From the IMG/VR virus record IMGVR_UViG_3300009500_000012: a stretch of DNA of 64,000 bases. One strand, written 5' to 3'. Of this stretch, positions 3,236 to 57,752 are shown one piece after another. How positions within the stretch are numbered: position 1 is the first letter of the stretch; the number at the start of each line of letters is the position of its first letter. Source of the stretch: an uncultured virus (IMG/VR IMGVR_UViG_3300009500_000012). Lineage: Duplodnaviria; Heunggongvirae; Uroviricota; Caudoviricetes. The notes below the pieces were generated by a model, which ran no database searches, was not told where the DNA came from, and saw only the letters and a program-made list of their open reading frames with translations. The position numbers and the translations under genes were made by a program.

Positions 3236-3994
3236 CTAACTTTCTGTAAAACTGTTTGCAAATTCATCGGTAAGTTTTTCTACTAATTTATATTTTTCTA
3301 TAGTTAATTTATATAAATTATATTCTTTATAAATTTCTAACCAATTGGTCATTTCTTTTTCAGGATATTTGTCATCTTTATAATATTTTTCCATATCTTC
3401 CGAAGCGAATCCATATTTTTTCTCAAATTTTTCTAATTTAGCTTTTAATAATTTGATTCTATTTTCAGCAAATGCTAATGTTTTATCGGGTTTTTGTTTA
3501 TGTTTCCATACATTAGGATGAGTTATAGTATTTAATAAAATTTTGGCTAGTGTTAACTTAGCAAAATCTCTTTCGGATAAGATTTCCATAAGTTGTTTTG
3601 TAAATTGTGAATTTTCTTTATTATCTGCTTCAATAATTTTCCATAAACCATAAGTTAAAATTAAATCCAAGAAGTTTGTAGATGCTTCACCTTGAGTTAT
3701 ATTACTTAAACTTCTCCAAGAGTAACCTAATTTAGGCATTATTGATAAAATTAAAATATCTTTTATTTCATGTTCGGGGTTCAAATCTTTTAAAATATCA
3801 TTTATAAATTTCGAATATAATTTTATAAATTTATAAATTGCATTTTCATCTGGCTCTCCATTTTTTTGTTTTAATTCTCTAGAAATAACTTTGTATTCTT
3901 TATCATCATTTAGTTTTGCTGATTTGATATCAAATTCATCTTCATTTGCAAATATTGCAAATTCACCTGTTTCTGGACTGTAATGAAAACGCAT
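3236..3994 (-). CDS. hypothetical protein
   Basis: 252 aa ORF in operon. Confidence 0.65.
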   Translation of the reverse strand: MRFHYSPETGEFAIFANEDEFDIKSAKLNDDKEYKVISRELKQKNGEPDENAIYKFIKLYSKFINDILKDLNPEHEIKDILILSIMPKLGYSWRSLSNITQGEASTNFLDLILTYGLWKIIEADNKENSQFTKQLMEILSERDFAKLTLAKILLNTITHPNVWKHKQKPDKTLAFAENRIKLLKAKLEKFEKKYGFASEDMEKYYKDDKYPEKEMTNWLEIYKEYNLYKLTIEKYKLVEKLTDEFANSFTES

Positions 3995-4294
3995 TTAAAG
4001 CACCGTATCTTCGGGCGAACTTTGCCCGTAAGACCCTTGGAAAATTACACTTGAAAACGGAATATCAACAGATACTTTCTCACCAGGAAACAAGATTGAT
4101 AAAGCCAATTGAGGCATCGTTGAATTATCTCCGTAATAAACACCCCCATACCCAAATTTTATCTCTGTAATTATTCCTTGACCATATTTAGTTAAAATAG
4201 GATTTCCAACTCTTAATGGTAATTGAGTTCCTCTAGGGCAAGGAACATTTCTGAGATATTGAGCATACGGATTACCATTAGAATTATATGACAT
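3995..4294 (-). CDS. hypothetical protein
   Basis: 99 aa ORF abutting next gene. Confidence 0.6.
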   Translation of the reverse strand: MSYNSNGNPYAQYLRNVPCPRGTQLPLRVGNPILTKYGQGIITEIKFGYGGVYYGDNSTMPQLALSILFPGEKVSVDIPFSSVIFQGSYGQSSPEDTVL

Positions 4295-4327: not shown

Positions 4328-6679
4328 TTACCATTGACGGGCTCTAAATAAACCACTTGTTGGTAATTTCTGATATTTAGTGAAGTTACTTGCTGTTTTT
4401 GCATAAAATGCGGTTCTTACAGCATCAATAACATGGTCTGGAGAAACAGTTCCTTTAGAATAAACAATTTGTCCACCGCTACCAGTAGAATATGTATGAT
4501 TTCTAAATTGATTTTCAATTGAGTCATCAAATTCTAAACCTGGCATTTGTAATAAGTTTCTTTCAGCATGGTAAATAATCATATTTGTCATTGCTTCTTT
4601 TGCTGGAGCAGTAACTTCTTTTCCATTAATTTTATCAACTACAAGTCTTCCACCAAATGGAATTGGAATCAATCTTTTATCAAAATTATGTAGAGCAAAT
4701 TTATTCCATCCTGTGCGTTTAGACATAAGAATTTGAGCAACAGCAGTACCATTACTTCCGGCATCCATTCCGAGCATTTTAAATTGATAATAATTATCTA
4801 ATAAAGCTATTAAATCTGCTTGAATATCATATGTAACATGTTCCATATGAATTCGCAAAACCATCTTCATAATTCCATTCCATTCTTCAAAAACAACGAA
4901 TTCTGAAGGGTCGGCAGAATAACCTAAATCAGCGCCAAACCAATATTTACATCCTGGATGCTTAGAAGGAAATCTTCTATTTAACCAACCGCTTAAATCA
5001 TTACCAATAGCATGAAGACTTTCTGGAGTAAGATTTAATAAACGATATTCTGGAGATTCTTTATTATCATTTTTGTATTTATAAGCAAATACTTTTTCAA
5101 AGACCAACCAGTTGAATACACCCATGTCAACAGTCCCCCAATCTGCCATGATTTCATGTTCATATTGGGTTGTATTTAATTCGGCTTTAAAAGAACGGTC
5201 TTGAATTTCATCATATTTTGGGTTTTCCCATGATGCAAACCAAAATTCTTTATAACCCCATTCTGGGTCTGTACAATTTGCAACTCCTATAAAATTAGCA
5301 ACATAGGAATGGTCATTTTCAACTTCAAGATTATATACCGATAAACTTTTTATTTCAAATTCATTGTTAGTAATAGGAAGATAAATGAATTTATCATCTA
5401 CATGACCAAAATTAATTGCTAAATCATCAAACTTACTTAAATTATAACATTGTTTTAAATTTAAAGGTATAGCAAGGAAATCTCCTGGATAAAGTTCTTC
5501 AATAGGATAATATTGTGCCTCTGGCTTTTGTACTCCATCATGTAAAGATGGAAGCAAACATTCGTTGGATGGATTCCATAACATTTGTTCACAATAATTA
5601 CAAAAGTGATTTTCTTTTTTTACTGCCATTACTCTGTGATTTGGAGTTGCTTTTATTGGCACTTCTGAGCCCATATACCATACAGAATGCATATTTCCGG
5701 TATATGGACGGTTCATTATCTTAGTGACCCTTGCAGGCTCTGCAAAGCGGTTAAAAACAACATCGTCAACTTCTATGTCTTCAATATTTTTTATAGTTCC
5801 ATCTGATAATAAAATAGGAGTGTCATTTTCAAAACATGCTTTAAAAAAGTGTGCGCGTCTTCCAGATGGTGTGGAAGATAATACTGTTAAGGCTTCATCA
5901 CCAGCATTGATTTCAGTTGCTTTTTCAGCAGCGAAGAATGATGCTGGCATATAATCTGCTTCGTCATATAATTTATAATCAAAAGTTTTAGAACGTGCTG
6001 CCTGTCCATTTGCACCAGGTCCTCTAAATACAAGAGTTGCAGGTTGACTCCAACCATCAACATGAAATTCAATTTGTGGGAATGGATTTTTTTTAACTAC
6101 AATAATTCCTTGGTCCATTGCCATACAATATTCAGGGCATTCATTCAAAAATTTCATTACGCGGTCAAAGACTGTTTTTGCTTTATCAGCATCCGCAGAA
6201 GCCAAAATAATATTAGCTCCGCGTGTGTATTGTTTTTCCCGAATTACAATGCCTTTAGGATTTTCCGGTGTAATTTTAGATTTATCTCTTACCGGAAATT
6301 TCTTTTTATATTTAATAGGTTTAACTAAAGCAAGATATAACGCGCCAAGAGCAAGAACCTCAGTTTTCCCAGATTGTCTTCCAATACGCCAAGCAAATCT
6401 TTTAATTGGTAAACCACGAAAAGCCTTGATAGGGTAATTTTTTGGATAAGTATATAATTTATCAAAACATCCAAGCAATAAAACTTGATAAAATGCTTTT
6501 GGTGACCATTTAAATTTATTTTGAGCCCAATATAAAGCATAAGAACTTCTGGCAAGTGCATAATCTCTATGTAATTGCTCTGTTCTTGTTATAATTTCTT
6601 CTTCAAAAACTTCATTTTCAGCCTTTTTTATTGCTGATTCATCAAGTAATTTACCTAAAACATTTATTGTTTCGCTCAT
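4328..6679 (-). CDS. terL: terminase large subunit containing a mini-intein
   Basis: Walker A GRQSGKT, Walker B YDEAD, SSTPSG coupling motif, RNase H-like GADLG / GMDAGSNG / DHVIDA. Confidence 0.9.
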   Translation of the reverse strand: MSETINVLGKLLDESAIKKAENEVFEEEIITRTEQLHRDYALARSSYALYWAQNKFKWSPKAFYQVLLLGCFDKLYTYPKNYPIKAFRGLPIKRFAWRIGRQSGKTEVLALGALYLALVKPIKYKKKFPVRDKSKITPENPKGIVIREKQYTRGANIILASADADKAKTVFDRVMKFLNECPEYCMAMDQGIIVVKKNPFPQIEFHVDGWSQPATLVFRGPGANGQAARSKTFDYKLYDEADYMPASFFAAEKATEINAGDEALTVLSSTPSGRRAHFFKACFENDTPILLSDGTIKNIEDIEVDDVVFNRFAEPARVTKIMNRPYTGNMHSVWYMGSEVPIKATPNHRVMAVKKENHFCNYCEQMLWNPSNECLLPSLHDGVQKPEAQYYPIEELYPGDFLAIPLNLKQCYNLSKFDDLAINFGHVDDKFIYLPITNNEFEIKSLSVYNLEVENDHSYVANFIGVANCTDPEWGYKEFWFASWENPKYDEIQDRSFKAELNTTQYEHEIMADWGTVDMGVFNWLVFEKVFAYKYKNDNKESPEYRLLNLTPESLHAIGNDLSGWLNRRFPSKHPGCKYWFGADLGYSADPSEFVVFEEWNGIMKMVLRIHMEHVTYDIQADLIALLDNYYQFKMLGMDAGSNGTAVAQILMSKRTGWNKFALHNFDKRLIPIPFGGRLVVDKINGKEVTAPAKEAMTNMIIYHAERNLLQMPGLEFDDSIENQFRNHTYSTGSGGQIVYSKGTVSPDHVIDAVRTAFYAKTASNFTKYQKLPTSGLFRARQW
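5276..5836 (-). mobile_element. mini-intein (187 aa, no homing endonuclease)
   Basis: block A CFENDTPILLSDG, block B ATPNH, end VYNLEVENDHSYVANFIGVAN followed by Cys+1. Confidence 0.9.
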
Positions 6680-44319: not shown

Positions 44320-44407
44320 TGGTGGGGAAGGTGGGACTCGAACCCACATGAGATTTCTCCCGTCGCGTTTTAAGCGCGATGCTTCTGACCAATTTAGCCA
44401 CTTCCCC
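44320..44407 (-). tRNA. trnL: tRNA-Leu(UAA), CCA encoded
   Basis: GGGGAAG/CTTCCCC acceptor, TCGCG-CTTAAAA-CGCGA anticodon arm, long variable arm, GTGGG-TTCGAGT-CCCAC, ACCA. Confidence 0.93.
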
Positions 44408-44819
44408 GAATAGATGGATGACTATAATATCCTCCGCATTTTCGAGAACAATAATTTTCTTTTGTTACTTTATTTTTTTGTCTGTCTTGGCGCTCACGTT
44501 GACTAACTTCTGCTTGAAACTCTTTTCCGCAAGGGCAAGTATATGTTTTATATTTTCTTTGCCTTCCGTGGTCAACCCAAACGGATTTTCTTCTATTTTC
44601 TATTCCGCTCAAAACTTGCAAGTTCGACAGTTCATTGTTTCTTATGTTTCCATCCTTGTGGTCAACTTCTTCCCAATCCTCAAGTTTCCTTCCTAATGCT
44701 TCTTCCATGAGGTAACGAGGATAAGAAATAGTTATCAGGGATTTATCGTCTAATTGCTTGACAATTCTGCTTCTGCCGTCCTTGGCAGTATATGGTCCGT
44801 ATATCTTCATGGCTAACAA
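44394..44819 (-). CDS. HNH homing endonuclease
   Basis: EVDHKDGNIRNNELSNL; CPCG..YCSRKC. Confidence 0.85.
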   Translation of the reverse strand: MLAMKIYGPYTAKDGRSRIVKQLDDKSLITISYPRYLMEEALGRKLEDWEEVDHKDGNIRNNELSNLQVLSGIENRRKSVWVDHGRQRKYKTYTCPCGKEFQAEVSQRERQDRQKNKVTKENYCSRKCGGYYSHPSIRGSG

Positions 44820-55562: not shown

Positions 55563-55909
55563 GCTTCCATCGGTTTACCATTGCCAATGGTTTGAGGAAG
55601 TTTCATGCTTTCTTTGTAGCAATCCTTACAGTATGGTTGCCCGAATTGGGGAGGATTCGGATGCGCTTTACAATGCATAGGCATTTTTGCTTCAAATGCA
55701 CAAGAGAGAATGAACCATTTATCAGGATTCCCATTCTCACTCATCATACATTTTTCGGGACTCAGAGTTAGTTGAAGGTGATAGCCAACTTTATATAGTT
55801 CGGCCTTCGTCTCTTCATACTTCTGAGGGGAAACAATAAGAGCATCTACCCAATACTCATTGTTCATTCCGCCCCACTTCTTTTTAACTAATTGAATGTC
55901 CATACTCAA
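55526..55909 (-). CDS. early hypothetical protein (start likely 55903)
   Basis: promoter upstream. Confidence 0.65.
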   Translation of the reverse strand: MSMDIQLVKKKWGGMNNEYWVDALIVSPQKYEETKAELYKVGYHLQLTLSPEKCMMSENGNPDKWFILSCAFEAKMPMHCKAHPNPPQFGQPYCKDCYKESMKLPQTIGNGKPMEAWLKAWKECPWS

Positions 55910-56064
55910 ATTATAGCATTCATTTTTAGTTTAATCAAATGAATGGGGTATGATACCGACCGCTGAAAGGTCCTTATTATGGAGAACCGTAGTCTTTTCA
56001 GGGTATGCTTCCCATGCTGCCTTGAATGCTACATAGGCCCACAGAAATCTGCGAATTATATCGG

Positions 56065-56358
56065 TCATTTGCCGACGTTATCGCCAAAGAGTTTCTTGAG
56101 GGTTTCGATAGGACCGAAGGCGCTGAAATAATTATCTTTGTATGAGCCCTTGTAATCCCATACACCACAACGCACTCCGTCAACTGTAAAGCCCCAGGAG
56201 TATTTAACTTTGTAGGGGTCATCCTTGCAATTAGCAGGGAAACCAATAATACTTTTGATTTGTGAGGCACTCAAACCTTTAATGGTATATTGAGCGTGGT
56301 CCCCGGCTTCATCTACAGGGAGGACGACAGGTTTTTTATCATCGGTATTATTATTCAT
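56065..56358 (-). CDS. early hypothetical protein
   Basis: TATAAT-6-ATG 56358; DPYKV..W..WDYK. Confidence 0.75.
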   Translation of the reverse strand: MNNNTDDKKPVVLPVDEAGDHAQYTIKGLSASQIKSIIGFPANCKDDPYKVKYSWGFTVDGVRCGVWDYKGSYKDNYFSAFGPIETLKKLFGDNVGK

Positions 56359-56439
56359 GTACCCATTATATCTTTTAGTGAGAGTTTTTGCAAATTCTTC
56401 CAAAGATTTTGATATATGTTCCATTTATTATAGCCTTTA

Positions 56440-56557
56440 TGGTGGAAATAGAAGGATTCGAACCTTCATATAGTTGACACAAGTATCGCGAATACCTGGT
56501 GAGAAGAGACTAGTATTCTCTGTCAACCTGTTTTAATACCACTTAAACTATATTTCC
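56440..56557 (-). ncRNA. tRNA-like RNA (118 nt, CCA encoded) with branched two-hairpin domain instead of an anticodon loop
   Basis: GGAAATA/TATTTCC, D arm GTTT..AAAC, GGTTGACA/TGTCAACT, GAAGG-TTCGAAT-CCTTC, ACCA. Confidence 0.85.
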
Positions 56558-56906
56558 CATAAAGAGGGCATCATGTCCTTTCCCCTCAGTCTTGCATTGA
56601 AATACAACCCGGTAAGATTGCCCTCGCGTTTCTTGCGGTCATGGGGCGTCTTATCTTAGTAGCAAGTCTTAAAAATTTGGGGCAATCCGGTAACGCCAAG
56701 AGGTTGCAACCCCTTTTTGCTTCCCATACGTAGCACATACGATTCGGGTTCCTCACAAGCCGCATTGCCATGCCTTGTGAGTCCTGCCTGCCCTGGTTTG
56801 TCCGAGAGCCGTAAGAATTCTTGAATGGACAGGAATCATTCAAGTTGAGTTACGCAGAGGACCAGGATGTAAGGACTTCCGTTTCATGAACCGGCTAGAA
56901 CCTTAC
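56558..56906 (-). ncRNA. putative large structured ncRNA (~350 nt)
   Basis: promoter 56913-56941; stems GTAAGG/CCTTAC, CTTGAATG/CATTCAAG, CTCACAAG/CTTGTGAG, GATTGCCC/GGGCAATC. Confidence 0.65.
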
Positions 56907-56944
56907 AAACTCATTATACTATTTGAATTTAGTTTTGTCAATTT

Positions 56945-57119
56945 AGATAATCGCCTCGGTGGAGGTTAGGCTCCTCCAATATCCCTTAACTCTCGCCATG
57001 TTTTTCCTTGCGGAACCCATCTGCTTCAAACGAGCGCAGGCTGATAGACTTCGGTTGTCTATCTTAGGGCCTCTTTATTTTATTATCCGATACTACCGAA
57101 TTTATTCCGGCGACCATCT
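56945..57119 (-). ncRNA. putative 175-nt ncRNA closed by 11-bp terminal stem
   Basis: promoter 57126-57154; AGATGGTCGCC/GGCGATTATCT; internal hairpins. Confidence 0.7.
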
Positions 57120-57213
57120 AAAACTATTATGCCATTTTCATTTAGTTTTGTCAAGTACGGTTCCAACAGTAGGCGTGGAGAAAAAGTAGACGCCTAGTTT
57201 TACTATGATACGC

Positions 57214-57396
57214 TAGGGCATACAGGGCTCGAACCTATATTTCCCGATGTTCCCCCAAGCACAAACCGCCAAGTCTGAGCCACCTAATCATTCTCTTGCT
57301 TACTTTTTCGTAGTTGGCGCTAGGAATTTCAGCATGGATTGATTCAGATTCAAGGGGTACTAGTCAAGGCGTTTTGTCCATTTAAACGAATGCCCC
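57214..57396 (-). ncRNA. tRNA-like RNA (183 nt) with ~100 nt insertion in anticodon arm
   Basis: GGGGCAT/ATGCCCT, D arm GTTT-AAATGGACA-AAAC, ATAGG-TTCGAGC-CCTGT. Confidence 0.75.
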
Positions 57397-57631
57397 ATTC
57401 CCGTATCACGCCCATTGGACTGATTACTACACCTTCTGTAGTTTGATTTGAGAAGGTTTTCCTACTTCTCACCGGGTCGAGACATGTCCCGGAGGCTAGT
57501 TGTAGCGTCCCATTTAAGGGATACCAATGAACTCGAAGCACCGTGGGAGTATCTCATTGGCTGTCAGCAACGTCGTCTTGGGTGCTACCTGCTTCTCGGT
57601 TATTTTGTGACCAAGCGTTTCCGCTCACCAC
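57397..57631 (-). ncRNA. putative multi-hairpin ncRNA (~235 nt)
   Basis: promoter 57638-57666; GAGCG-GAAA-CGCTT, CCAATGA/TCATTGG, CCGGG/CCCGG, TGAGAAG/CTTCTCA, ACTACA/TGTAGT. Confidence 0.6.
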
Positions 57632-57752
57632 ATTTATATCTTATACTATTTGGAGAGTTTTGTCAAATCCTTTTTGTTTAATTCAAAAAAGAATCTCCTG
57701 CCATGACGCCATGAAACTTTATGACTCTTGCAGGAGCAATAATTGAAACGCT

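What the first reader, a model, noticed from the sequence alone, without database searches (positions are those of the whole stretch)
56440..56557. Intact tRNA body with CCA whose anticodon loop is replaced by a two-hairpin junction
Seen: the acceptor (7/7 Watson-Crick), D arm with GG, T arm TTCGAAT and ACCA are all intact. The anticodon stem is extended to 8 bp (GGTTGACA/TGTCAACT) and encloses GAGAA/TTCTC and GGTAT/ATACT hairpins. Positions 32-33 would be AC rather than YU, so simple intron removal gives no canonical loop. Inference: a non-decoding mimic kept under selection, e.g. a decoy for tRNA-targeting defence toxins or a ligand for a synthetase, EF-Tu or RelA.
Basis: partly seen in the sequence, partly recalled or inferred. 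Interest (0 to 1): 0.85.

Follow-up and report, generated by a model that had tools for sequence, protein, structure and literature searches.

The report
Phage tRNA with blocked anticodon loop
An uncultured virus of bacteria from a moss sample carries a threonine-type tRNA gene whose decoding loop is interrupted by a folded 40-base insert, and sequence alone cannot settle whether the insert is cut out or turns the RNA into a non-decoding tRNA look-alike.

Summary
The feature is real but lies on the minus strand (56440-56557). Rfam calls a full tRNA (44.9 bits) with 47 nt where the 7-nt anticodon loop belongs. Removing 40 nt at 31/32 or 32/33 leaves C/A-U-UGU-G-U, which is tRNA-Thr(UGU), the phage's commonest Thr codon.

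The element sits in a 130-kb bacterial myovirus, about 350 nt downstream of a perfect sigma-70 promoter. No bulge-helix-bulge motif, group I core or splicing endonuclease was found. Both junctions lie inside helices, and every loop base is paired with the insert.

I found no homologue, so selection cannot be shown. No RNA contig covers the gene.

My reading:
- Retained, non-decoding tRNA-shaped RNA: 0.4.
- Spliced tRNA-Thr: 0.3.
- Recent relic: 0.25.

Two leads were tested. A conserved, unannotated tRNA-like family in enterobacterial phages resembles the 3' half, but the window fails its covariance model. The acceptor and T arm are identical over 23 nt to a Ro60-linked tRNA-like module of Chryseobacterium.

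This scan has noted the same kind of phage tRNA-shaped gene on other DNA before. Lak-phage 'enigmatic introns' are the closest published case.

The parts
56440..56557 (-). tRNA-shaped gene (118 nt) with encoded CCA at 56440-56442
   Evidence: Rfam RF00005 44.9 bits. ARAGORN -i calls tRNA-Thr(tgt) with i(35,40).
56524..56557 (-). 5' body: acceptor 5' strand, D arm and anticodon-stem 5' strand (gene positions 1-34)
   Evidence: Sequence read; cmscan alignment.
56484..56523 (-). 40-nt insert (gene positions 35-74), unique in the 130-kb phage record
   Evidence: ARAGORN -i. blastn-short against the whole record finds no second copy.
56501..56520 (-). Hairpin 1 of the insert (GAGAA/UUCUC); the loop contains the palindrome CUAG
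   Evidence: Folds; palindrome check.
56480..56498 (-). Hairpin 2; its 3' strand is the insert end plus would-be loop bases 32-35, and its tip contains the palindrome CGCG
   Evidence: Folds; palindrome check.
56440..56483 (-). 3' body: would-be loop CUUGUGU, anticodon-stem 3' strand, variable loop, T arm, acceptor 3' strand and ACCA
   Evidence: 23 nt of it are identical to a Chryseobacterium element.
56913..56941 (-). Consensus sigma-70-type promoter (TTGACA-17-TATAAT, 12 of 12) about 350 nt upstream of the gene
56558..56905 (-). ORF-poor, G+C-richer leader between the promoter and the tRNA-shaped gene; part of it is present in RNA-library contigs
   Evidence: No Rfam family matches.
57212..57397 (-). 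Second, weaker tRNA-shaped gene with a 109-nt insert; ARAGORN -i reads Thr(AGU)
   Evidence: fold. Not called by Rfam. An RNA-library contig covers 57193-57379.
56065..56424 (-). Downstream ORF (119 aa, no family match) starting 16 nt after the CCA

Best explanation
The gene descends from a phage tRNA-Thr(UGU). A structured 40-nt insert now sits at the 5' edge of its anticodon loop. In the transcript the anticodon stem continues for three more pairs (insert ACA with U36-G37-U38). It then stacks on a second hairpin whose stem uses C32-G35, while a first hairpin branches off. No anticodon is therefore exposed.

My leading reading is that the insert stays in the mature RNA. On this reading, host RNA polymerase transcribes the early unit from the consensus promoter. 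RNase P cuts at G1 and so also frees the upstream leader RNA. The encoded CCA end is kept. The product is a stable, non-decoding, tRNA-shaped RNA whose acceptor/T-arm half can still engage proteins that recognise tRNA bodies.

Shown: the tRNA body, the insert, its fold, the promoter, and the lack of any known splicing signal. Inferred: retention of the insert, RNase P and CCA handling, and any decoy or processing role.
For: - Intact tRNA body but 47 nt in place of the loop.
- All 7 loop bases are paired with insert bases in the minimum-energy and centroid folds.
- Positions 37-38 are G-U rather than the A-A seen in the Thr(UGU) tRNA read in phage Marfa (CUUGUAA). These are exactly the two bases that pair with the insert.
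- No BHB at the productive cut sites. No Rfam intron or ribozyme family matches.
- No splicing endonuclease or RtcB in 175 ORFs scanned against Pfam (108, 67).
- The host is bacterial: tail sheath, M23/SLT and DPBB wall hydrolases; sigma-70 promoters; Shine-Dalgarno cores before 42 of 84 ORF starts against 11% at random positions.
- A second tRNA-shaped gene 650 nt upstream carries a 109-nt insert. One RNA-library contig runs through that insert and across its 3' junction.
- Phages do maintain non-decoding tRNA-shaped RNAs. The Marfa-type family has 9 of 23 pairs with compensatory changes and cannot be cut into a tRNA. T4 RNAC and RNAD are stable RNAs of unknown role (passage in PMC3014915).
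Against: - Exact removal of 40 nt gives a loop with Y/A32, U33, UGU and R37.
- ACA is the commonest Thr codon: 629 of 1427 Thr codons in 39 long ORFs.
- The other phage tRNAs also read A-ending codons. No other tRNA-Thr was found in the record, which is estimated 78% complete.
- The phage encodes an RNA ligase and a P-loop kinase.
- No homologue exists to show that the insert is conserved.
- The fold is only about 2 sd better than shuffles.
- No expression data for this gene.
- The contig over the second gene comes from an RNA library that may contain DNA. It has only 22 letters beyond the 5' junction, below the tool's 31-letter rule.
Confidence: 0.4

Rival explanations
1. The insert is a true mini-intron. 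It is cut out at 31/32 or 32/33 by an unknown host or phage nuclease, and the halves are sealed (for example by the phage RNA ligase). This yields a working tRNA-Thr(UGU) that serves the phage's ACA codons.
For: - ARAGORN -i call.
- 2 of 8 excision registers give U33-UGU-R37.
- ACA is 44% of Thr codons.
- The tRNA set is Leu-UAA, Arg-UCU, Lys-UUU (two copies), Ile-UAU and Met.
- RNA ligase (PF09414 plus PHA02142 OB fold) and an AAA_33 kinase are present.
- Lak megaphages have conserved inserts in tRNA genes, including a Thr(TGT) gene, with no known mechanism (passages of PMC6784885).
Against: - 22% of shuffled inserts also allow a Y32-U33-R37 loop. The property is also simply inherited if an insert landed in a tRNA.
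- Both junctions lie inside helices, with no BHB.
- At 40 nt the insert is far too short for a group I core, and no Rfam hit was found.
- No endonuclease candidate.
- G37-U38 is unusual for Thr. That tRNAs reading ANN codons carry A37 (t6A) is recalled knowledge; the only Thr loop I read is Marfa's.
Confidence: 0.3
2. It is a recently disabled tRNA-Thr gene. An insertion or local template-switch duplication landed in the anticodon loop, and the gene is now a neutral relic that is still transcribed.
For: - The insert is unique in the record.
- No relatives show conservation.
- The loop bases survive intact, as expected shortly after an insertion.
- Two DNA samples carry the same sequence without variation, so there is no sign of purifying or diversifying history.
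Against: - All four stems of the body are perfect and the conserved D- and T-loop bases are kept.
- Positions 37-38 differ from the usual Thr loop in just the way that pairs with the insert, which looks like co-adaptation.
- A second gene of the same build lies next to it.
Confidence: 0.25
3. It is an archaeal-type BHB intron in a virus of archaea.
For: Non-canonical intron positions such as 31/32 are known in archaea (recalled; search listing only).
Against: - No BHB at the productive cuts.
- Peptidoglycan hydrolases, sigma-70 promoters and Shine-Dalgarno use point to a bacterial host.
Confidence: 0.01

Closest known systems
'Enigmatic' introns in tRNA genes of Lak megaphages (Devoto et al. 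2019, PMC6784885; passages read)
   Same: Phage tRNA genes, including a putative tRNA-Thr(TGT), are interrupted in the anticodon region. They are found only when intron-aware prediction is used, and no mechanism is known.
   Different: The Lak Thr insert is described as possibly encoding a tRNA itself, and insert-free alleles fix its borders. Here the insert is 40 nt, forms two hairpins, and has no allele or relative. The only blastn match to Lak phages was a chance hit in a coding repeat.
Phage T4 RNAC (species 1) and RNAD (species 2) stable RNAs (annotated in NC_000866; roles unknown per PMC3014915; co-transcribed with the tRNAs per PMC2330249)
   Same: Phage-encoded small RNAs of unknown role made with tRNAs. 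RNAC ends in a T-arm-like hairpin.
   Different: RNAC and RNAD are not called tRNA by Rfam, and RNAC folds mainly as a long hairpin. The window RNA keeps a complete cloverleaf body. No homology was shown.
Bacterial Y RNA YrlA, a tRNA-like domain on a Ro60-binding stem (Chen et al. 2014, PMC4201824; passages read)
   Same: A tRNA body (acceptor, D and T arms) joined to a long helix where the anticodon loop would be. M. smegmatis YrlA is cut by RNase P and receives CCA. The window's T arm plus acceptor strand is identical over 23 nt to a Chryseobacterium tRNA-like module lying 2.8-3.1 kb from the Ro60 gene in 2 of 3 genomes examined.
   Different: YrlA is circularly permuted, with its ends in the long stem and the acceptor closed by a loop. 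The window RNA has normal tRNA ends. There is no GNCGAAN0-1G Ro motif, no Rfam YrlA hit, and no TROVE gene in the phage.
Unannotated tRNA-like RNA family of enterobacterial phages, found here (Marfa, JD18, S16, CF1, Moabite, N1M2 and others)
   Same: Phage-encoded, next to tRNA genes, with an acceptor stem, a T arm and a long arm with an inner hairpin. It gives the best blastn match to the window's 3' half (86.7% over 44 nt, E 8e-3; nhmmer E 0.007).
   Different: It has no D arm and no encoded CCA. The window scores 16.6 bits (E 0.45) with its covariance model, no better than ordinary tRNAs, whereas held-out members score 45-104 bits.
Archaeal bulge-helix-bulge introns and bacterial group I introns in tRNA anticodon loops
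   Same: An intervening sequence inside the anticodon arm of a tRNA gene.
   Different: Neither defining structure is present.

Membership tests
tRNA (Rfam RF00005) | Cloverleaf body scoring above the gathering threshold | tested here: met
   44.9 bits against 29, model positions 1-71.
tRNA (decoding) | 7-nt anticodon loop with U33 and purine 37 in the transcript | tested here: not met
   47 nt lie between the stem strands. The criterion is met only after a notional 40-nt excision.
Archaeal/eukaryal BHB tRNA intron | Two 3-nt bulges separated by a 4-bp helix at the splice sites | tested here: not met
   My script search found no BHB-like arrangement at cuts 34/74 or 35/75. The 15 best candidates all cut elsewhere in the tRNA body.
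Archaeal/eukaryal BHB tRNA intron | Host or virus with an EndA-type splicing endonuclease | tested here: not met
   No such Pfam hit in 175 phage ORFs. Host markers are bacterial. The host genome itself is unknown.
Group I intron | Conserved P1-P9 catalytic core (hundreds of nt) | tested here: not met
   The insert is 40 nt. No Rfam match at E<=1 in 56300-56700.
Lak-type phage tRNA inserts | Insert in the anticodon loop of an otherwise normal phage tRNA gene | tested here: met
Lak-type phage tRNA inserts | Same insert conserved across relatives, with insert-free alleles | not testable with these tools
   No relative of the gene was found.
Marfa-type phage tRNA-like family (model R1) | Significant score with the family covariance model | tested here: not met
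   The window scores 16.6 bits, E 0.45. Ordinary tRNAs score 16-20 bits, and held-out members score 44.8-104.2 bits.
YrlA / bacterial Y RNA | Rfam RF02553 match | tested here: not met
   No hit in the window.
YrlA / bacterial Y RNA | GNCGAAN0-1G Ro60-binding motif (as named in PMC4201824) | tested here: not met
   No occurrence on the minus strand of 56400-57700.
YrlA / bacterial Y RNA | Encoded beside a Ro60 (TROVE) gene | tested here: not met
   No TROVE hit among the phage ORFs. The record is estimated 78% complete.
tmRNA | tRNA-like domain plus tag reading frame; Rfam RF00023 | tested here: not met
   No tmRNA call at this locus.

The most novel reading that the evidence does not exclude
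The phage deliberately makes CCA-ended, tRNA-shaped RNAs whose anticodon is locked into a roughly 16-bp coaxial arm with a side hairpin. This gene would be one, and its 186-nt neighbour another.

They would act through the tRNA body alone. They could serve as decoys or sponges for tRNA-directed host factors or defence nucleases. Alternatively, they could be RNase P 'punctuation' that releases and stabilises abundant early non-coding RNAs.

The exact 23-nt identity of the acceptor/T-arm half with a Ro60-linked tRNA-like module of Chryseobacterium would then mark it as an un-permuted cousin of bacterial Y RNAs.
Probability: 0.3. Interest if true: 0.8.

Novelty: new variant of a known kind. Interest (0 to 1): 0.55.

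Why it matters
Short inserts in phage tRNA genes have been in print since 2019 without a mechanism, and bacteria have no known protein-based tRNA splicing.

- If this insert is removed, that points to an undescribed cut-and-join pathway.
- If it is retained, it adds to growing signs that phages keep non-decoding tRNA look-alikes, a class whose oldest members (T4 RNAC and RNAD) still have no function.

This example comes with a defined consensus promoter and a clean one-step excision prediction, so it can be tested directly with a cloned 600-bp fragment.

Tried and rejected
**Searches for homologues, all without a window-type relative**
- blastn of 55800-57400 against the phage collection: no match.
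- blastn of the gene alone: 91 records at E<=1 and 204 at E<=10, none covering 80% or more of the query. These were T-arm hits plus the Marfa-type element.
- Exact or degenerate patterns in viral contigs: 0, 2, 5 and 0 loci.
- The same degenerate pattern in metagenome contigs: 10 loci. Three were Marfa-type, and seven were coding or unrelated, including one tRNA-like locus (L122) that I did not follow up.
- Neighbouring DUF932 protein: no close relative in viral contigs, and the nearest of 1880 hits is 43% identical. 80 distant DUF932 loci held 12 tRNAs; 4 were ARAGORN intron calls, none alike.
- This scan's index: nothing for this genome or sequence.

**Expression.** Of 4 runs laid, the 2 RNA-library runs gave contigs only at 56695-57104, 56954-57104 and 57193-57379. 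Nothing covers 56440-56557, and no joint was reported. This says nothing about splicing of this gene.

**Leads dropped**
- Lak-phage blastn hit: a chance match in a coding repeat.
- T4 RNAC homology: the shared GTCAAC lies in a hairpin loop in RNAC, and the alignment shows little beyond the T arm.
- Membership of the Marfa-type family.
- Stop-codon recoding as the cause of the short ORFs in the right half of the window: no code change lengthens the ORFs convincingly.
- Chryseobacterium as host: the phage tRNA-Leu and tRNA-Met have no match at E<=0.01 in 2 Chryseobacterium genomes. The phage also uses TTGACA/TATAAT promoters and Shine-Dalgarno sites. That these are atypical for Bacteroidota is recalled knowledge.

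Full report
**1. The observation**

The reported stretch holds a tRNA-shaped gene, but it is on the minus strand.

- Rfam's tRNA model matches window 56443-56557(-) over all 71 model positions. The score is 44.9 bits against a gathering score of 29, with E 2.6e-6 for the whole window against all 4227 families.
- The alignment shows 47 nt between the two strands of the anticodon stem, where a tRNA has 7.
- Reading the reverse complement gives:
  - acceptor GGAAAUA/UAUUUCC, 7 of 7 Watson-Crick pairs;
  - U8-A9;
  - D stem GUUU/AAAC, with GG in the loop;
  - anticodon stem GGUUG/CAACU, one pair being G-U;
  - variable loop AUAU;
  - T arm GAAGG-UUCGAAU-CCUUC;
  - discriminator A and an encoded CCA.
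- The minimum-energy and centroid folds keep the cloverleaf. They extend the anticodon stem by ACA/UGU and place two hairpins inside.
- The fold is only modestly better than chance. For the whole gene z = -2.18, and 8 of 200 shuffles fold as well. For the arm alone z = -2.14, and 7 of 200 do.
- Default ARAGORN does not report the gene.

**2. The correction**

That conclusion is wrong.

- With introns allowed, ARAGORN calls tRNA-Thr(UGU) with a 40-nt insert after gene position 34.
- I enumerated all eight single-piece excisions that leave seven bases. Two of them (cuts at 31/32 or 32/33) give C/A32-U33-UGU-G37-U38. The other six lack U33.
- This property is weak evidence by itself. 22% of shuffled inserts also allow a Y32-U33-R37 loop. 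Any insert that lands in a tRNA loop leaves the loop bases behind.

**3. Context**

The window is part of a 130,281-bp linear viral record, estimated 78% complete.

- It is a tailed phage of bacteria. It has a terminase with a Hint/intein segment, a portal, a tail sheath, an M23 peptidase/SLT protein and two DPBB lytic transglycosylase-like proteins.
- It is far from any sequenced phage. Terminase tblastn gave 3 records, all below 30% identity.
- The left 34 kb of the window is about 30% G+C with long late genes. The right 30 kb is about 43% G+C with short ORFs.
- The right part also carries many minus-strand TTGACA(A/T)AAC sites: 28 matches against 10.7 expected.
- Three near-perfect sigma-70 promoters lie just upstream of the gene. 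They are at 57666-57638, 57154-57126 and 56941-56913, the last matching 12 of 12. The gene is therefore the 3' end of an early unit with a leader of about 350 nt. A 119-aa ORF starts 16 nt after its CCA.
- Shine-Dalgarno cores precede 42 of 84 ORF starts, against 11% at random positions.
- The record's other tRNAs are Leu(UAA), Arg(UCU), two Lys(UUU), Ile(UAU) and Met(CAU). All but Met encode CCA.
- ACA is the commonest Thr codon: 629 of 1427, or 44%, in 39 ORFs of 250 aa or more. A Thr(UGU) tRNA would therefore fit the set.

**4. Can the insert be removed by a known route?**

- My scripted search for bulge-helix-bulge geometry found nothing at the two productive cut pairs. The best 15 candidates all cut through the tRNA body.
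- The insert is 40 nt, far below a group I core. No Rfam family other than tRNA matches at E<=1.
- No splicing endonuclease, RtcB or TROVE protein appears among 175 ORFs scanned with Pfam.
- An RNA ligase (PF09414 with a PHA02142 OB fold) and an AAA_33 kinase are present. A few ORFs were re-scanned with PHROGs, which added no endonuclease candidate.
- In the fold, both junctions lie inside helices. C32-G35 form the 3' strand of hairpin 2, and U36-U38 pair with the first three insert bases.
- G37-U38 differs from the A37-A38 in the Thr(UGU) loop that I read in phage Marfa. These are precisely the bases that pair with the insert, which looks like co-adaptation of loop and insert.

**5. A second gene of the same build**

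- ARAGORN -i also calls a 186-nt tRNA-shaped gene at 57212-57397(-), read as Thr(AGU), with a 109-nt insert at 37/38.
- Its D arm is nearly the same as in the first gene, and the fold keeps the acceptor, D and T arms.
- It is weaker than the first gene. It has G-U pairs and an extra base before the anticodon stem. Rfam does not report it at E<=5, and its fold is no better than shuffles (z = 0.0).
- In one RNA-library run, a 187-nt contig identical to the window covers 57193-57379. It runs through the whole insert and across its 3' junction. Beyond the 5' junction it has only 22 letters, short of the tool's 31-letter rule. RNA libraries can also hold DNA.

**6. Expression and variation of the gene itself**

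- Two DNA runs hold the gene with its insert and show no difference. One may be the source sample.
- RNA-library contigs cover 56695-57104 in one run, with a 151-nt piece of the same stretch in a second run, and 57193-57379. They do not cover the gene, and no joints were reported. Splicing is therefore untested.

**7. Relatives**

None was found for the gene, the insert or the leader. The individual searches and their yields are listed under Tried and rejected. The insert has no second copy in the phage record.

**8. Lead one: an enterobacterial phage family**

The best blastn match to the window's 3' half (86.7% over 44 nt, E 8e-3) falls on an unannotated spacer between tRNA genes of Klebsiella T4-like phages.

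- That element occurs in 86 phage records. These are T4-like phages of Klebsiella, Salmonella, Citrobacter and Enterobacter, plus Moabite-type and N1M2 jumbo phages.
- I built a covariance model from 8 members with a hand-set structure: acceptor stem, long arm with an inner hairpin, and T arm.
- The model finds held-out members at 44.8-104.2 bits, with the jumbo-phage members at 66-72 bits. The window scores only 16.6 bits (E 0.45). That is the same as ordinary tRNAs (16-20 bits) and part of T4 RNAC (15.5 bits).
- A sequence-only profile puts the window gene first in the 130-kb record, but at just 12.8 bits, E 0.007.
- I conclude that the window RNA is not a member. The family itself is real. 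On 13 sequences, 94.8% of cells pair, against 35-42% when the 3' partners are slid. 9 of 23 pairs show compensatory changes. The alignment was fitted to the model, which favours the structure.

**9. Lead two: Chryseobacterium**

The 23-nt T arm plus acceptor strand occurs exactly in 13 loci of the 185,579-species genome set. All 13 are Chryseobacterium.

- In C. polytrichastri the match extends to 28 of 29 nt (E 1e-6 within that genome).
- ARAGORN finds no tRNA gene in 6 of the 13 loci that I tested.
- The sequence reads as a T arm, then an acceptor helix closed by a GUAA loop, then a D arm. This is a circularly permuted tRNA-like module, followed by a second such module.
- Rfam's YrlA model matches weakly, at 34.1, 33.2 and 27.7 bits in the 3 loci scanned, against a gathering score of 69.
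- A Ro60 (TROVE plus vWA) gene lies 3.1 kb and 2.8 kb away in two genomes, and 18.4 kb away in the third.
- Two RNase T-like exonucleases, a metallophosphoesterase and an MBL-fold protein lie directly upstream.
- Chen et al. 2014 describe YrlA as a tRNA-like domain on a Ro60-binding stem. They report that M. smegmatis YrlA is cut by RNase P and gains CCA (passages).
- The window RNA has the same parts in un-permuted order. It lacks the Ro motif and any Rfam YrlA hit. The phage tRNA-Leu and tRNA-Met do not resemble Chryseobacterium DNA.
- I treat the identity as a real but unexplained link of the acceptor/T-arm half. It is not evidence of host or function.

**10. Literature**

- Devoto et al. 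2019 report inserts in Lak-phage tRNA genes, including a putative Thr(TGT). They call them enigmatic and state that phage tRNA introns had not been reported before (passages).
- T4 RNAC and RNAD are annotated in the T4 record, are made from the tRNA transcript (passage), and have unknown roles (passage).
- A 2026 preprint on bacterial tRNA mimics was seen only as an abstract and outline.
- My searches for a mechanism for short phage tRNA inserts returned nothing relevant in their listings.
- Supplementary tables of the Lak and YrlA papers were not opened. They may hold insert sequences or phage YrlA lists that bear on the comparison.

**11. Earlier notes of this scan**

Unchecked AI notes describe the same kind of object in other phages. 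These include hairpin inserts of 20-59 nt in anticodon loops and two-hairpin domains with palindromic tips. Here both hairpin tips also contain 4-nt palindromes, CUAG and CGCG. I estimate, by my own arithmetic and not from a call, that this would occur by chance a few per cent of the time. It was noticed after the fact. None of those windows shares sequence with this one.

**12. Verdict**

The gene is a genuine tRNA-Thr(UGU)-derived, promoter-driven phage gene. Its anticodon loop is occupied and fully paired by a 40-nt structured insert.

- Most likely (0.4) the insert stays, and the RNA is a non-decoding tRNA-shaped molecule processed at its tRNA ends.
- A novel splicing route yielding a working tRNA (0.3) remains open.
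- A recent relic (0.25) also remains open.

It is a new variant of a kind already noted in print and repeatedly in this scan.

Noticed in passing
window 57212-57397 (-): Second tRNA-shaped gene with a 109-nt insert at 37/38, which ARAGORN -i reads as Thr(AGU). Its D arm is almost the same as in the main gene. An RNA-library contig covers 57193-57379, including the insert.
   Followed up: partly
window 56558-57700 (-): ORF-poor stretch with three consensus sigma-70 promoters (57666-57638, 57154-57126, 56941-56913). RNA-library contigs from two runs both end at 57104. No Rfam family matches, so this may be one or more abundant early non-coding RNAs.
   Followed up: partly
L013:110-195 (Klebsiella phage Marfa), L098:117-202 (Salmonella phage S16), L100:115-199 (Serratia phage Moabite), L101:106-191 (Klebsiella phage N1M2): A conserved roughly 86-nt tRNA-like RNA (acceptor stem, long arm with inner hairpin, T arm; no D arm or CCA) is present in 86 phage records across T4-like and jumbo phages. 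It is unannotated, or overlapped by a 'hypothetical protein' CDS in S16. It is not in Rfam 15, and 9 of 23 pairs show compensatory changes.
   Followed up: partly
L152:5950-6400 (Chryseobacterium polytrichastri), also L126, L131, L133: Tandem circularly permuted tRNA-like modules (T arm, closed acceptor hairpin, D arm) lie between two RNase T-like exonuclease genes and an SPFH gene, about 3 kb from a Ro60/TROVE gene. The Rfam YrlA match is weak. This is probably an undescribed Y-RNA-type locus of Bacteroidota.
   Followed up: partly
L147, L148, L149 (Chryseobacterium, about 6-8 kb from the module above): Dense arrays of 15, 9 and 13 tRNA genes within 3 kb. One array includes three tRNA-Cys copies.
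   Followed up: no
L012:10621-10681 (+), which is G001:121220-121280: A 61-nt acceptor/T-arm minihelix with encoded CCA matches the ends of Rfam's tmRNA model (26.5 bits, below the gathering score). Further T-arm-like 18-30-mers lie at G001:121553 and 122226.
   Followed up: no
L012:3400-3473, 3991-4066, 4206-4278 (-): Two tRNA-Lys(UUU) genes and a tRNA-Ile(UAU) gene are called by Rfam (39-48 bits) but missed by ARAGORN. They have mismatches in the D, anticodon or T stems.
   Followed up: no
window 4328-6679 (-): The large terminase gene carries Hint/intein-like segments (PF05203, PF14890; both below their Pfam cut-offs).
   Followed up: no
window 34000: Sharp composition change from about 30% to about 43% G+C, coinciding with the switch from long late genes to short early ORFs and an array of TTGACA(A/T)AAC promoter-like sites on the minus strand.
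   Followed up: partly
window 44320-44819 (-): An HNH endonuclease gene (44394-44819) overlaps the 5' end of tRNA-Leu(UAA) (44320-44407).
   Followed up: no
L122:570-637 (-): A metagenome contig carries a tRNA-like gene with a long segment between the D arm and the T arm. It was picked up by the degenerate pattern. It was only read by eye.
   Followed up: no
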